Source: a virus (taxonomy: Duplodnaviria > Heunggongvirae > Uroviricota > Caudoviricetes). From it: a stretch of DNA of 10,443 nt. The stretch lies in the IMG/VR virus record IMGVR_UViG_2529292922_000021, positions 1 through 10,443 of that record; one strand, 5' to 3'. The notes below the pieces were generated by a model. That model made no database searches. It had not been told where the DNA came from and saw only the letters and a program-made list of their open reading frames with translations. Each line of letters begins with the position of its first letter. Position 1 is the stretch's first letter. A program made the position numbers and the translations under genes. This document shows positions 7,734 through 10,443 of this stretch, in pieces.

Positions 7734-8842
7734 ATGACCGACACCACCATGCAATTGCTCAGTCAGGGCACAGACCCCGTGAAAATGCCGGATTTTGATA
7801 TTCTTGCGGAGGGTAAAACGCTGTCAGGCGTGGCAGAGCGCCTGATGAGCCTGTCACTGACCGACAACCGGGGATTTGAGGCGGACCAGCTCACCATCAC
7901 GCTGGATGATGCGGATGGTCAGTTGCAGCTACCGCCACGGGGCGCGCGCCTGACGGTTCTCATTGGCTGGAAAGGAGAACCGCTGACAGAAAAAGGCACT
8001 TACATTGTTGATGAAATCGCTCACGAAGGACCGCCGGACAGGCTGACTGTTTCAGCCAGAAGCGCAGATTTTCGGGATGAATTTAACGTTAAACGTGAGG
8101 TGTCCTGGCATGATGTGACCCTTGAGCGTGTGGTATCCGCCATCGCTCATCGGTATGGTCTGAAACCACAAATCAGCGAAATGCTGATGGATATCGAAAT
8201 CGACCACGCCGACCAGACCGAAGAAAGCGACATGTCCTTCCTTACGCGCATGGCGGAAATGCTGGGCGCAATCACCACGGTAAAAAGCGGTAATCTGTTA
8301 TTCATCATGCCAGGCGGTGGCGTGAACGCACAGGGCCAGCCGTTGCCCTCGTTCGCCATCACGCGCAGCAGTGGCGATCGCCATCAGTTCCGCATTGCTG
8401 ACCGCGAAGCGTATACGGGGGTACGCGCTTACTGGCTTGATCTTAATTACGGGAAAAAGAAAAAGTCAGCGTGAAACGCCGCAAACCGCCAAAACCCAAA
8501 AAGGAGAAAAGCAGCAGCCGTGAAGGTGATTATATGGAAGGCGCAGAAGGCAATGTGTTTGTGTTACGCAAGACTTATCAGAACGAGCAGGCAGCAAGAC
8601 GCGCAGCGGCGGCAAAGTGGCAGCAGCTACAACGCGGAGCCGCAGCGTTCTCCATCACACTGGCACGTGGACGCGCAGAACTCTACCCCGAAATGCATGG
8701 CACGGTAACAGGATTTAAAAGCGAAATTGATAATCAGGACTGGATTATTGCAAAAGCCGAGCACACCATTGATAACAGTGGCTTTACCACGCAGCTTGAG
8801 CTTGAAGCCAAAATCCCGGAATGGATAGCAGAAACAGAGTAA
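7734..8842 (+). pseudogene. D: P2 gpD-like tail protein (late control gene D), split by a frameshift in a lysine-codon A-tract
   Basis: ATG at 7734 with RBS GGGAGGG (7722-7728). The N-terminal part (to the TGA at 8472-8474) contains LSLTDNRGFEADQLTITLDDADG, VSARSADFRDEFNVKREVSWHDVTLERVVSAIAHR and FAITRSSGDRHQFRIADREAYTGV, resembling P2 gpD as recalled. The C-terminal part continues in another frame (8471-8842: REGDYMEGAEGNVFVL..FSITLARGRAELY..DNSGFTTQLELEA). The switch lies within GGGAAAAAGAAAAAG (8451-8465). Confidence 0.8.
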
Positions 8843-9036
8843 ACAACTTAGATGCATTAGCCCTGACATTTGCTAACGCGCTTACAGCAAGAATCATAAC
8901 CAATCTGACAGCCTACCCGGTGTCAAAATCAGAAGAGCCTTACATTAGAATATGTTAATTTGTAGCAAACAAATTTACACACAAATGATTACTGCTGAAA
9001 TAGCCCCCATAAATACCATGTCAAAGGATCCATGTT

Positions 9037-9702
9037 ATGAATATGCAAATTTTTATCGCACCAGCAGCCACAGTTGCTGCAGTCTGCCTTGCTGCATATT
9101 TTGCTTTACGAAATGAACGTAAAAAGAAAGCACTTGAGATTAGAACAACTCAACTAGATCGAATATCAGAGCTAGTAAACCGAGCATCTACCAATTTGAT
9201 GCAATATACAGGTACTCTTGCCTCTATACTGGAAGCGCACGCCAAAGATAATTATCTACCGAACAAAAAATTTGACATTAATGTAATTAGCAAATGGAAA
9301 GATTGCCTCGATGAGAGTGAGGTCTGGGCGATTGATAGACAGCAACTAAGAACATGTCAGCACAGTCTGGAGTTTCATCGTGAAAAAGAATGGGCTGAAT
9401 GGAAAAAAATAATTCCACCATTACTTGATAAAATTGACCAATTTTTTCTCATATCTAAGCCAGGGCAACCTGTTACGTTTATAAATGGCCAAAACAAAAC
9501 AGCTGATGAACTACTTGTTTTCTCAAGATATTTGAGAAAACAAACAGCAGAAATTGAATCAGTACGTCAGCTGTTACTTTCTCAAATGAGAGAGGAATTC
9601 ATCGAGTTAACTAGCTTTGAACCTGTCACAATGTTTAGCTTATTTAAATCAATAAAGAAAAATGTCATGCAATTTTTCTGTATCAGTGCTCTTAAAAATT
9701 GA
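9037..9702 (+). CDS. Hypothetical membrane-anchored protein of unknown function; low-GC cargo gene between D and ogr
   Basis: 221-aa ORF with RBS AAAGGA about 8 nt upstream. GC content is visibly far below the flanking phage genes. N-terminal hydrophobic helix IFIAPAATVAAVCLAAYFAL is followed by a charged, probably helical segment. No family recognised. Own AT-rich upstream region and a strong downstream terminator. Confidence 0.7.
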   Translation: MNMQIFIAPAATVAAVCLAAYFALRNERKKKALEIRTTQLDRISELVNRASTNLMQYTGTLASILEAHAKDNYLPNKKFDINVISKWKDCLDESEVWAIDRQQLRTCQHSLEFHREKEWAEWKKIIPPLLDKIDQFFLISKPGQPVTFINGQNKTADELLVFSRYLRKQTAEIESVRQLLLSQMREEFIELTSFEPVTMFSLFKSIKKNVMQFFCISALKN

Positions 9703-9717
9703 CGCTCTGTTGCAAGC

Positions 9718-9747
9718 AACCCCAGTGTTAAACTGGGGTTATTCTTG
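9718..9747 (+). terminator. Rho-independent terminator of the cargo gene
   Basis: Perfect 9-bp stem AACCCCAGT (9718-9726) / ACTGGGGTT (9732-9740) with a 5-nt loop GTTAA, followed by ATTCTTG. Confidence 0.6.
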
Positions 9748-9851
9748 CTAAGAGACCTTTCTACGGCATCAGTAAACAAAACGAACTATCAGTTGGAGTC
9801 TGAGCAAGTTCAGCCTAAACTAGCGACAGCACTACGTTAAGGGAGGTCGCT

Positions 9852-10112
9852 ATGTTCCGTTGTCCGCTTTGTGGCGCATCTGCCCGTATCCGCACCAGTC
9901 GTCCGGAAAATGATTCAAACACCGTGCGGCAAAAGTATTACCAGTGTAACAACCTGGAATGCGGCGTATGCTTCTCAACACTGGAAGCTTTCCATAAATT
10001 CACATCGAAACACGCCTCCGGCATCCACTCTTCAGAAGATATCCCGTGGCATGAGCTGCCAGCTTCACACAGGGGAAACAATCAGATGAGCTTGCCTTTA
10101 CCTCAGAATTAA
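9852..10112 (+). CDS. ogr: Ogr/Delta-family zinc-finger late transcription activator
   Basis: 86-aa ORF with RBS GGGAGG (9841-9846). N-terminus MFRCPLCG..(x24)..CNNLEC gives the Cys4 C-x2-C-x24-C-x4-C arrangement; overall resemblance to P2 Ogr as recalled. Sits downstream of D, as in P2. Confidence 0.85.
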   Translation: MFRCPLCGASARIRTSRPENDSNTVRQKYYQCNNLECGVCFSTLEAFHKFTSKHASGIHSSEDIPWHELPASHRGNNQMSLPLPQN

Positions 10113-10150: not shown

Positions 10151-10172
10151 ACGCGCGGGTGCCTTTCGGCTG

Positions 10173-10385
10173 ATGGTCGGAGGGAATACCCGAAGGCCAG
10201 ATGTGGAAAGGCCCCGGAAAACATCTCTGTTTAACCGAGGCCCTAACCGCATTACCTTGACAAGTGAAAGGTTAGCGCCTCTCCGGAAAAGGAGCAAGTG
10301 CTATGTCGCAAAAATCGCTTACGGCCATCACGTTCTGCGTGACGGCAATCCTCATCATCTGGATGTTGCACGGTTCGCTGTGTGA
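10173..10385 (+). CDS. mok: mok-like overlapping leader ORF (modulation of killing) of a hok-family type I toxin locus
   Basis: 70-aa ORF that starts upstream of the hok-like gene, overlaps most of it in a different frame and ends inside it. This is the arrangement of mok relative to hok in hok/sok loci; the protein sequence itself is not diagnostic. Confidence 0.3.
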   Translation: MVGGNTRRPDVERPRKTSLFNRGPNRITLTSERLAPLRKRSKCYVAKIAYGHHVLRDGNPHHLDVARFAV

Positions 10386-10443
10386 AATACGGATGAGCTT
10401 CTGGGGAGCGGAGTTTGCGGCGTTCTTACAGTGTAAGCAGTAA
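10303..10443 (+). CDS. hok: Hok/Gef-family type I toxin (small membrane-depolarising peptide), hokA-like
   Basis: 46-aa ORF missing from the ORF track (below its size cutoff). MSQKSLTAITFCVTAILIIWMLHGSLCEIRMSFWGAEFAAFLQCKQ has an N-terminal TM helix followed by the Hok signature SLCEIR and an AAFL..CK tail, resembling E. coli HokA as recalled. SD GGAG (10291-10294) lies in a potential CUCC/GGAG hairpin. Confidence 0.8.
   Translation: MSQKSLTAITFCVTAILIIWMLHGSLCEIRMSFWGAEFAAFLQCKQ

What the first reader, a model, noticed from the sequence alone, without database searches (positions are those of the whole stretch)
8843..9750. Low-GC stand-alone cargo gene inserted between gpD and ogr encodes an uncharacterised membrane-anchored protein
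In P2, D and ogr are adjacent. Here about 1 kb of strongly AT-rich DNA separates them and forms a self-contained unit: AT-rich upstream region, RBS, a 221-aa ORF and a perfect stem-loop terminator. The protein has one N-terminal TM helix, then a charged, likely coiled-coil and soluble region with no motif I recognise. Composition and placement fit a horizontally acquired prophage accessory gene, a class enriched for superinfection-exclusion, abortive-infection and other anti-phage functions. This is the best candidate in the window for an undescribed system.
Basis: partly seen in the sequence, partly recalled or inferred. Interest (0 to 1): 0.8.

Follow-up and report, generated by a model that had tools for sequence, protein, structure and literature searches.

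The report
Unknown membrane protein, known prophage cassette
The AT-rich 1-kb insert between the tail gene D and the regulator ogr of this E. coli P2-family prophage is a mobile, inverted-repeat-bounded "lysogenic conversion" cassette of a type first annotated in phage P2 in 2004. It carries an uncharacterised membrane-anchored protein that may shield the host from other phages, but nothing here tests that.

Summary
A 1,009-bp stretch at 37% GC separates gpD from ogr and contains one 221-aa ORF (9037-9702) with an RBS and a strong hairpin terminator. The backbone is 53% GC.

The protein has one N-terminal membrane helix (N-out, C-in), a confidently modelled cytoplasmic four-helix bundle and a basic amphipathic tail. 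It matches nothing in Pfam, PADLOC, PHROGs, NCBIfam, PDB or BFVD. It is under purifying selection (dN/dS 0.24). It belongs to a small family (23 clusters at 50% identity) of solo genes on prophages, ICEs and plasmids of Enterobacterales.

The site is a genuine cargo hotspot. It was empty in about two thirds of sampled related prophages and otherwise held at least 7 unrelated single genes, including PIN, HEPN-like, DUF2971/PDC-S31 and DUF3800.

The same repeats flank P2 fun(Z), which blocks T5. They mark cargo borders in 2,049 of 5,426 E. coli genomes.

So the vehicle is known and the cargo family is uncharacterised. An anti-phage, membrane-acting role is the best guess but rests on inference only.

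The parts
7734..8842 (+). gpD (tail/baseplate hub), left backbone flank. Split into two ORFs by a 1-bp deletion in the A-run at 8460-8464.
   Evidence: Pfam Phage_GPD on both halves. The alignment to four other genomes shows 5 A here against 6 A elsewhere. Full-length D is annotated at the same place in TUM2820 and SCU-124.
8846..8852 (+). ACTTAGA, the left copy of the short direct repeat at the insertion point. The empty site holds a single ACTTAGAAT.
   Evidence: The right copy is clear in the other cassettes at this site but degenerate here (GCCTAAA at 9813-9819, 4/7).
8853..8937 (+). Left inverted repeat of the cassette (TGCATTAGCCCTGAC ... GTGTCAAAATCAGAAG).
   Evidence: Aligns to the annotated 'left inverted repeat' of P2-EC31 (AJ512677) and to the left ends of five other cassettes. 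An nhmmer profile built without the window gives a single hit at 8843-8944, E 9e-13.
8946..8951 (+). Candidate -10 (TAGAAT) of the cargo gene's own promoter, with a weak -35 GTCAAA 18 nt upstream.
   Evidence: Read from the sequence. The consensus scan did not call it. Inference only.
9023..9028 (+). Ribosome-binding site AAAGGA.
   Evidence: Sequence.
9037..9702 (+). Cargo gene encoding a 221-aa bitopic membrane protein: TM aa 5-22, cytoplasmic four-helix bundle about aa 26-192, basic amphipathic helix aa 199-219.
   Evidence: Identical to WP_001057122.1, 'hypothetical protein', in E. coli O55:H7 CB9615.
9718..9740 (+). Intrinsic-terminator-like hairpin (9-bp perfect stem, 5-nt loop).
9742..9812 (+). 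Right inverted repeat of the cassette (... ACTATCAGTTGGAGTCTGAGCAAGTTCA). The short form lacks the optional 33-bp internal duplication.
   Evidence: Aligns to the annotated 'Right inverted repeat' of P2-EC31, to the right end of the P2 fun(Z) cassette and to six others. The nhmmer profile built without the window hits only the terminal 9782-9818, E 1e-5. The inner part is poorly conserved here.
9793..9821 (+). Candidate ogr promoter, TTGGAG-17-TAAACT, whose -35 lies inside the right inverted repeat.
   Evidence: Read from the sequence. Other cassettes have TTGGAG-17-TAGAAT. P2 has its ogr promoter in the D-ogr spacer. Inference only.
9852..10112 (+). ogr (late-gene activator), right backbone flank.
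   Evidence: Pfam Ogr_Delta. Annotation in CB9615.

Best explanation
Positions about 8853-9812 are one mobile 'lysogenic conversion' cassette of the inverted-repeat-flanked type known from the P2 Z region. Here it is inserted at ACTTAGA in the short D-ogr spacer of a P88-like (Xuanwuvirus, Peduoviridae) E. coli prophage.

Its single cargo gene is probably transcribed from its own weak promoter in the lysogen and stops at its own hairpin. The right repeat may restore a -35 for ogr.

The product is an inner-membrane protein. A few residues face the periplasm, a conserved TM helix runs straight into a cytoplasmic four-helix bundle, and a basic amphipathic C-terminal helix probably lies on the membrane.

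Most likely role (inferred, not shown): a stand-alone prophage-encoded anti-phage factor acting at the inner membrane. It would either block incoming phage DNA or assembly at the membrane, or it would sense infection through the bundle and oligomerise through the conserved TM helix to collapse membrane integrity (abortive infection).

What is shown: cassette identity, hotspot behaviour, protein architecture, purifying selection and solo-gene distribution on mobile elements. What is inferred: expression in the lysogen, anti-phage function and mechanism.
For: **Cassette**
- The window ends align to the repeats that GenBank AJ512677 annotates as 'left inverted repeat' and 'Right inverted repeat' around a 'putative lysogenic conversion protein', and to the ends around P2 fun(Z).
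- Profiles built without the window hit once each (E 9e-13 and 1e-5).
- Homology to the Kluyvera lambdoid-prophage copy starts exactly at the outer edge of the left repeat and runs 860 bp at 76% identity.
- Independent insertions carry 7-9-bp direct repeats: 9/9 in L068, 8/9 in L100, and about 7/9 at D-ogr in other cassettes.

**Hotspot**
- The empty spacer is 39 bp.
- In an evenly spaced sample of records keeping both flanks, 24 of 36 sites were empty and 12 of 36 held 7 different cargos.

**Defence flavour**
- The prototype cargo fun(Z) blocks T5 (record note).
- Sister cargos are PIN_12, weak RiboL-PSP-HEPN, DUF2971 (the PADLOC candidate PDC-S31), DUF3800 and DUF4365 beside a pPIWI nuclease.
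- Distant homologs sit beside DUF4238 and DUF4145 genes, PifA and a Ppl-like ATPase, and on an ICE that also carries bSEFIR.

**Protein**
- The AF2 model has pLDDT 87.8.
- All 16 full-length members have an N-flank charge of 0 or below and a C-flank charge of 0 or above, and a basic amphipathic C-terminal helix.
- The TM and juxtamembrane block (P9, A20, L24, K30, K31) is the best-conserved part, together with F113, H114 and W122.
- dN/dS is 0.24.
Against: - No hit to any of 5,027 PADLOC models for any of 18 family members, and none in PHROGs, Pfam or NCBIfam.
- No strong promoter was found, and there are no expression or phenotype data.
- Cassettes of this type also carry non-defence cargo such as a GNAT, a glycosyltransferase region and a TolA-C-like gene.
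- Several plasmid and ICE homologs lie in replication or partition modules, which fits a maintenance role equally well.
- The flanking direct repeat is degenerate in this window (4/7).
- The two ends of this one cassette are not significantly complementary on their own (z 1.5).
Confidence: 0.45

Rival explanations
1. It is a lysogenic-conversion gene that changes host physiology for reasons unrelated to phage defence, for example envelope stress tolerance, colicin or toxin tolerance, or host-niche fitness. The membrane-tethered bundle would act as an adaptor or inhibitor of a host inner-membrane protein.
For: - Cassettes with the same repeats carry clearly non-defence cargo: a GNAT acetyltransferase in an effector-rich lambdoid region, a TolA-C-terminal-domain gene between Q and the holin, and a methyltransferase-like gene plus a membrane protein next to a glycosyltransferase.
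- The Kluyvera copy sits next to a colicin-domain gene.
- P2-family moron genes with niche-fitness roles are documented (neaT, PMC3573123).
- The gene is present in pathotypes such as EPEC E2348/69 and O55:H7 CB9615.
Against: - No similarity to any envelope, immunity or virulence family.
- The family is also on plant-associated Pantoea and Erwinia plasmids and on ICEs, which argues against a host-niche-specific role.
- Most sister cargos at this exact site look like nucleases or defence candidates.
Confidence: 0.25
2. It serves the mobile element itself, through maintenance or competition with other elements. Examples would be a membrane-acting addiction or killer function, or an exclusion function against related plasmids or ICEs, rather than defence against lytic phages.
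For: - Distant homologs lie directly after parA-parB on a Citrobacter Rep3 plasmid.
- Others lie directly after repB on a Klebsiella plasmid, beside a resolvase-type tyrosine recombinase on a Pantoea conjugative plasmid, and inside the ParA/DnaB/TopoIII maintenance part of ICEs.
- In this window a hok/sok killer module follows ogr, so this end of the prophage does collect maintenance functions.
Against: - It is always a solo gene with no conserved partner that could act as an antidote.
- Entry-exclusion genes normally sit in transfer operons.
- In E. coli it rides a cassette type whose known prototype, fun(Z), is anti-phage.
Confidence: 0.15
3. It is a decaying or functionless hitch-hiker ORF inside an old cassette in a defective prophage.
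For: - The prophage in this window looks defective: gpD is frameshifted and an IS110-family element truncates gpU.
- The copy in phage 520873 is disrupted.
- Two of the sampled genomes have an IS1 within or adjacent to the cargo unit (H19, H20).
- The right repeat and the flanking direct repeat are degenerate here.
Against: - dN/dS is 0.24 over 221 codons against Kluyvera, with all three protein regions constrained.
- The ORF is intact in 54 genomes at 99% identity or more, or at about 91-94%.
- There are 23 family clusters with conserved motifs and a confident fold.
Confidence: 0.05

Closest known systems
Inverted-repeat-flanked 'Z-region' lysogenic-conversion cassettes of P2-like coliphages. 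These include P2 fun(Z) and P2-EC30/31/48/58 (GenBank AJ512676-AJ512683), described by Nilsson, Karlsson and Haggard-Ljungquist, Mol Biol Evol 2004;21:1-13, a paper cited in PMC6379469 that could not be read here.
   Same: Homologous left and right repeats of about 85-110 bp. A single AT-rich cargo gene with its own signals, in either orientation. Short direct repeats at the insertion point. Present in some and absent in other closely related phages.
   Different: It sits between D and ogr of a P88-like phage, not between G and FI of P2. The cargo protein is unrelated to any P2-EC Z-region ORF or to Fun(Z): tblastn against 50,697 phage records finds only phage 520873. The right repeat is the short form, and the flanking repeat has decayed.
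P2/P4 defence hotspots (old, tin and fun in P2; Rousset et al. 2022, PMC9122126). [quoted passage not shown]
   Same: A fixed position between conserved phage genes that holds rapidly swapped, mostly single-system accessory cargo enriched for anti-phage genes.
   Different: The well-studied hotspots are A-Q (old/tin) and G-FI (Z/fun). The papers read here never name D-ogr as a slot. None of the cargo at this slot except DUF2971/PDC-S31 matches a PADLOC model.
Single-gene membrane-acting exclusion or abortive-infection proteins of prophages and defence systems. From general knowledge: P22 SieA/SieB, T4 Imm, HK97 gp15, and the Cas13b accessory pore Csx28.
Morons (Hendrix/Juhala concept), and mobile insertion cassettes or MITE-like elements that carry passenger genes. 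Both from general knowledge.
   Same: Extra DNA with deviant composition and its own terminator between two genes that are adjacent in relatives. Terminal inverted repeats plus short flanking direct repeats and no transposase inside.
   Different: The enzyme that moves these cassettes is unknown, and no autonomous copy was looked for exhaustively. The 2004 title attributes the exchange to site-specific recombination, not transposition.

Membership tests
P2 Z-region-type inverted-repeat-flanked cassette | Left terminal repeat homologous to the annotated 'left inverted repeat' | tested here: met
   Alignment A3 shows 55-62% identity to six other left ends, including AJ512677 3-115. The nhmmer profile built without the window gives one hit, 8843-8944, E 9e-13.
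P2 Z-region-type inverted-repeat-flanked cassette | Right terminal repeat homologous to the annotated 'Right inverted repeat' | tested here: met
   Alignment A4. The terminal block TCAGTTGGAGTCTGAGC is shared. nhmmer hits 9782-9818 at E 1e-5, but only the outer 37 bp are well conserved.
P2 Z-region-type inverted-repeat-flanked cassette | The two ends are inverted copies of each other | tested here: inconclusive
   The family consensus shows TGTAYTAGCTCA... / ...TGAGCTAnTACA, and inner GTGCCAGAAGCGGAC / GTCCGCTCCTCGC. This is significant in the SEC-C cassette (29 and 36 nt arms; z 3.8) but not within this window's cassette alone (z 1.5).
P2 Z-region-type inverted-repeat-flanked cassette | Short direct repeat of target sequence on both sides | tested here: inconclusive
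   ATTAATGTG 9/9 in L068, AGTAACAA(A/T) 8/9 in L100, and ACTTAGA clear in other D-ogr cassettes. In this window ACTTAGA against GCCTAAA is 4/7.
P2 Z-region-type inverted-repeat-flanked cassette | Located in the Z region (between G and FI) of a P2-like phage | tested here: not met
   Here it lies between D and ogr. The same repeats also occur after tfa and between Q and the holin in lambdoid prophages, and next to an integrase, so position is not really defining.
Moron / horizontally acquired prophage accessory gene | Absent from closely related phages at the same position, with deviant composition and its own terminator | tested here: met
   58 of 5,426 genomes carry it, against more than 1,100 with the backbone. 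The empty site is 39 bp. GC is 0.37 against 0.53. The hairpin folds at -26.7 kcal/mol.
Moron / horizontally acquired prophage accessory gene | Own promoter active in the lysogen | not testable with these tools
   Only a weak candidate, GTCAAA-18-TAGAAT. The consensus scan found none. This needs 5'RACE or RNA-seq.
Known anti-phage defence systems (PADLOC-DB 2.0.0) | Significant match of the protein to a defence-system HMM | tested here: not met
   The best match has E 0.023 and is not shared across members.
Superinfection-exclusion / abortive-infection proteins | Reduces productive infection by another phage when expressed alone | not testable with these tools
   Needs plaque and liquid-infection assays.
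Toxin-antitoxin module | Conserved adjacent partner gene | tested here: not met
   It is a solo gene in every context examined, and the neighbours differ in each.
Phage lysis proteins (holin / i-spanin) | Placement in the lysis cassette. For an i-spanin, also a periplasmic coiled coil with an o-spanin partner. | tested here: not met
   The prophage's holin, endolysin and LysB/C genes lie 16 kb away in CB9615. The charge distribution places the soluble domain in the cytoplasm in 16 of 16 members. There is no partner gene.

The most novel reading that the evidence does not exclude
The 221-aa protein founds a new single-gene, membrane-acting anti-phage family (TM helix, cytosolic four-helix-bundle sensor and amphipathic tail). 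In addition, the P2 'Z-region' inverted repeats are the ends of a much more widespread, transposon-like cargo vehicle than is appreciated. Its right end is found at 2,720 places in 2,049 of 5,426 E. coli genomes, with 7-9-bp flanking duplications, sometimes in head-to-tail arrays. This vehicle would shuttle defence and conversion genes between P2-like phages, lambdoid phages and integrase islands using an unidentified recombinase.
Probability: 0.25. Interest if true: 0.7.

Novelty: new member of a known kind. Interest (0 to 1): 0.42.

Why it matters
If the protein is an anti-phage factor, it adds a small single-gene membrane effector with no detectable relatives in current defence catalogues. 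It is present in reference pathogens (EPEC E2348/69, O55:H7 CB9615), where it is easy to test.

More broadly, the inverted repeats give a sequence handle that marks the borders of accessory cargo in several prophage types. Searching for the repeats, rather than for flanking phage genes, could harvest many uncharacterised lysogenic-conversion and defence candidates. It could also reopen the question of which enzyme moves these cassettes.

Tried and rejected
3. **Spanin, holin or toxin-antitoxin readings.** Rejected on position, topology and the lack of a partner gene.
4. **Tail genes on the opposite strand as a rearrangement artefact.** Rejected, because CB9615 and phage 520873 have the same layout.
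5. **Cassette ends as a structured RNA.** No Rfam hit.
6. **Invertase crossover sites, ERIC/REP or known IS ends.** No resemblance, judged from memory only.
7. **The 16-mer scan of IMG/VR.** Only 24 of 83 matches were real, 17 upstream of ogr and 7 at lambdoid borders. The rest are consistent with chance.
8. **Complementarity of the two ends within single cassettes.** Significant only for the SEC-C cassette. The repeat relationship is therefore argued from the family alignment and the GenBank annotation, not from this window alone.
9. **Literature.** Searches for the protein accession, and for a described membrane-anchored P2 defence gene, found nothing. The 2004 paper itself is not held.
Full report
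**What the window is.** Pfam assigns the following ORFs:

| Coordinates | Strand | Assignment |
|---|---|---|
| 1-600 | + | Pin/Gin-type serine invertase |
| 1036-2112 | + | IS110-family transposase |
| 2073-2495 | - | gpU |
| 2502-5345 | - | tape measure |
| 5880-6392 | - | tail tube FII |
| 6392-7576 | - | tail sheath FI |
| 7734-8842 | + | gpD, in two pieces |
| 9852-10112 | + | ogr |

A hok/sok module follows ogr. The DNA of 8700-9900 is 100% identical to E. coli O55:H7 CB9615 and eight other genomes. It is 94% identical to Escherichia phage 520873, genus Xuanwuvirus (P88-like), family Peduoviridae. The divergent layout (FI to U on one strand, D and ogr on the other) is also seen in CB9615 and phage 520873, so it is native to this lineage and not an artefact.

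**Check of the observation.**
- D stops at 8842 and ogr starts at 9852.
- The intervening 1,009 bp are 37% GC against 53% for the rest of the window. The ORF's GC3 is 28%, against 53-61% in neighbouring genes.
- ORF 9037-9702 encodes 221 aa behind an AAAGGA RBS.
- A perfect 9-bp hairpin at 9718-9740 folds, with its outer stems, at -26.7 kcal/mol, z = -5.
- In P2 the D-ogr spacer is 81 bp and holds the ogr promoter. In empty relatives of this prophage it is 39 bp.

**The site is a cargo hotspot.** Of 5,426 complete E. coli genomes, 1,140 match the D and ogr flanks but only 54-58 carry this insert. I took an evenly spaced sample of the ranking and kept the 36 records that retain both flanks. Of these, 24 had an empty site, 3 had this gene, and 9 had one of six other single genes:
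- a DUF3800 protein;
- a SEC-C-motif 'YecA family' protein;
- a PIN_12 protein;
- a DUF2971 protein that matches the PADLOC candidate PDC-S31;
- a 340-aa protein with a weak RiboL-PSP-HEPN match;
- a 384-aa unknown.

These cargos lie in either orientation, and their inserts are 34-43% GC. [quoted passage not shown] The reviews of P2 hotspots that I could read do not name D-ogr.

**The insert is a known kind of cassette.** Aligning the occupied sites showed that unrelated cargos share conserved ends:
- on the left, TGTATTAGCTCAGAC... running for about 85 bp, directly after ACTTAGA;
- on the right, ...ACTGTCAGTTGGAGTCTGAGCTAnTACA, followed by ACTTAGAAT.

The empty site has a single ACTTAGAAT.

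The right-end motif also occurs outside this backbone.
- It lies after the tail-fibre assembly gene of lambdoid prophages.
- It lies between cargo and the holin gene essD in a lambdoid prophage.
- It lies next to a prophage integrase.
- It lies after a DUF4365 gene beside a pPIWI-associated nuclease.
- An 84-bp right end finds 2,720 places in 2,049 of 5,426 genomes.

Matching left ends lie 0.4-3 kb upstream, enclosing one to three genes.

Three independent insertion sites carry short flanking direct repeats: ATTAATGTG 9/9, AGTAACAA(A/T) 8/9, and ACTTAGA.

A search of phage records then showed that these ends are already annotated. GenBank AJ512677 ('P2-EC31 proviral Z-region') labels 3-115 'left inverted repeat' and 1616-1706 'Right inverted repeat', around a 'putative lysogenic conversion protein'. 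The same repeats bracket P2 fun(Z), whose record note says the cloned gene blocks growth of T5.

These records belong to Nilsson, Karlsson and Haggard-Ljungquist 2004 (reference seen in PMC6379469). I could not read that paper.

Profiles of the left and right repeats built without the window each hit it exactly once, at 8843-8944 (E 9e-13) and 9782-9818 (E 1e-5).

Three caveats apply.
- Two of the profile sequences share some backbone flank with the window.
- The inner part of the right repeat is poorly conserved here.
- The flanking repeat is decayed here (4/7), and the two ends of this single cassette are not significantly complementary by themselves.

**The cassette, not just the gene, moves.** A 73%-identical protein in Kluyvera georgiana lies in a lambdoid prophage between the replication and Q regions. 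DNA homology to the window starts exactly at the outer edge of the left repeat and runs for 860 bp at 76% identity, to just past the stop codon. In the Kluyvera locus the sequence immediately before the left repeat ends in ...GTACCGTACA, which resembles a right-repeat terminus. This suggests abutting cassettes.

**The protein.** It matches nothing in Pfam, PADLOC, PHROGs or NCBIfam. None of the 18 aligned family members gives a consistent hit.

The family is small. There are 7 clusters at 90% identity by word-seeded search and 23 representatives at 50% identity in an exhaustive HMM search of 1.84 billion proteins. Members are 214-235 aa.

dN/dS against the Kluyvera copy is 0.24, and all three protein regions are constrained.

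With the 18-sequence alignment, AlphaFold2 gives pLDDT 87.8. The model has three parts:
- one long helix (aa 4-71) that includes the hydrophobic segment and continues as the first helix of a four-helix bundle (to about aa 192);
- two short strands;
- a terminal helix, aa 199-219.

In all 16 full-length members the residues before the hydrophobic segment have net charge 0 or below, and the 15 after it have net charge 0 or above (+4 in this protein). The C-terminal helix is basic and amphipathic. This predicts N-out, C-in, with the bundle in the cytoplasm.

The best-conserved block is the TM helix and its juxtamembrane stretch (P9, A20, L24, LRNExxKK). H114 and W122 are invariant and F113 is nearly so, within an LxFHR motif. 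That is more conservation than a passive anchor needs.

Structure searches give only generic helical bundles.

**Where relatives live.** It is always a solo gene. Contexts seen:
- the P88-like D-ogr site (E. coli);
- a lambdoid prophage (Kluyvera);
- the variable slot of ParA/DnaB/TopoIII-type ICEs, one of which also carries bSEFIR;
- between DUF4238 and DUF4145 genes on an unassigned contig;
- Citrobacter, Klebsiella, Pantoea, Erwinia and Winslowiella plasmids, next to parAB, next to repB with pifC-pifA 1 kb downstream, or next to a Ppl-like ATPase.

This is the distribution expected of an accessory gene used in conflicts between mobile elements. It does not by itself separate anti-phage defence from element maintenance.

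**Most likely working model.**
- *Shown:* a mobile, repeat-bounded conversion cassette in a genuine hotspot; a constrained gene; a bitopic membrane protein with a cytosolic four-helix bundle.
- *Inferred:* it is expressed from the prophage and protects the lysogen from other phages at the inner membrane, either by exclusion or by infection-triggered membrane damage through TM-mediated oligomerisation.

I put about 0.45 on the package and roughly 0.35 on the anti-phage role specifically. The rivals are non-defence lysogenic conversion (0.25), element maintenance or competition (0.15) and a functionless relic (0.05).

**Comparison with what is known.** As a genetic unit it is a member of the P2 Z-region cassette family. 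The repeats are met; the position differs, but position is evidently not defining. As a protein it belongs to no described family. It resembles small membrane exclusion or abortive-infection proteins only in general architecture.

I therefore call it a new member of a known kind. The interest is moderate. It would rise if a phenotype were found, or if the repeats proved to be the ends of an active and very widespread cargo vehicle.

Noticed in passing
window 8455-8475 (gpD, 7734-8842): gpD is split into two ORFs (ending at 8474 and starting at 8471) by a 1-bp deletion in an A-run. The window has GGGAAAAAG-AAAAAG where four other genomes have six A. This is either a real frameshift or a homopolymer sequencing error.
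   Followed up: partly
window 600-2500: An IS110-family transposase gene (1036-2112) lies between the invertase and gpU. CB9615 has no such element there. The gpU ORF is 140 aa with an altered C-terminus, against 162 aa in CB9615. The prophage is therefore probably tail-defective.
   Followed up: partly
window 10157-10443: A hok/sok-type killer module follows ogr. A sok-like RNA scores 48 bits against Rfam RF01794, below the gathering score of 59. The Hok/Gef ORF at 10304-10443 is annotated as Hok/Gef in CB9615.
   Followed up: partly
window 9793-9821: The right inverted repeat carries TTGGAG 17 nt upstream of TAAACT (TAGAAT in other cassettes), just before ogr. Insertion of the cassette may therefore replace the -35 of the ogr promoter.
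   Followed up: no
L068:7325-7408 and E. coli genomes; L099-L102: The 84-bp right repeat marks cargo borders at 2,720 places in 2,049 of 5,426 E. coli genomes. These are in several prophage types and next to integrases. Enclosed cargos include DUF4365 beside a pPIWI nuclease, a TolA-C-terminal-domain gene, a GNAT and a 417-aa unknown.
   Followed up: partly
L068 4161-7408; L100 2353-4083; D-ogr cassettes L005, L008: Independent cassette insertions are flanked by 7-9-bp direct repeats (ATTAATGTG 9/9, AGTAACAAA/T 8/9, ACTTAGA), and the termini read TGTA...TACA. This looks like transposition-type insertion, although the 2004 paper's title speaks of site-specific recombination.
   Followed up: partly
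L010 7770-7905: In the Kluyvera lambdoid prophage the left repeat of the homologous cassette directly abuts a sequence resembling a right-repeat terminus. A colicin-domain gene and a 100-aa gene lie upstream, which hints at head-to-tail cassette arrays.
   Followed up: no
L005 3039-3127, L068 7340-7408, L100, L102: Some right repeats contain a 33-bp internal duplication that repeats the ACTGTCAG motif (...ACTGTCAGATTTGATTGCATTCTGGCTACGCAAACTGTCAGTTGGAG...). Others, including the window, lack it. The repeated motif could be a protein-binding site.
   Followed up: no
E. coli genomes AR_0128 and AR_0118 (hits H19, H20, H206): In two genomes an IS1A lies within the matched region, inside or beside the cargo unit. 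In phage 520873 the cargo gene is disrupted, with a 399-bp ORF annotated and a split tblastn match.
   Followed up: no
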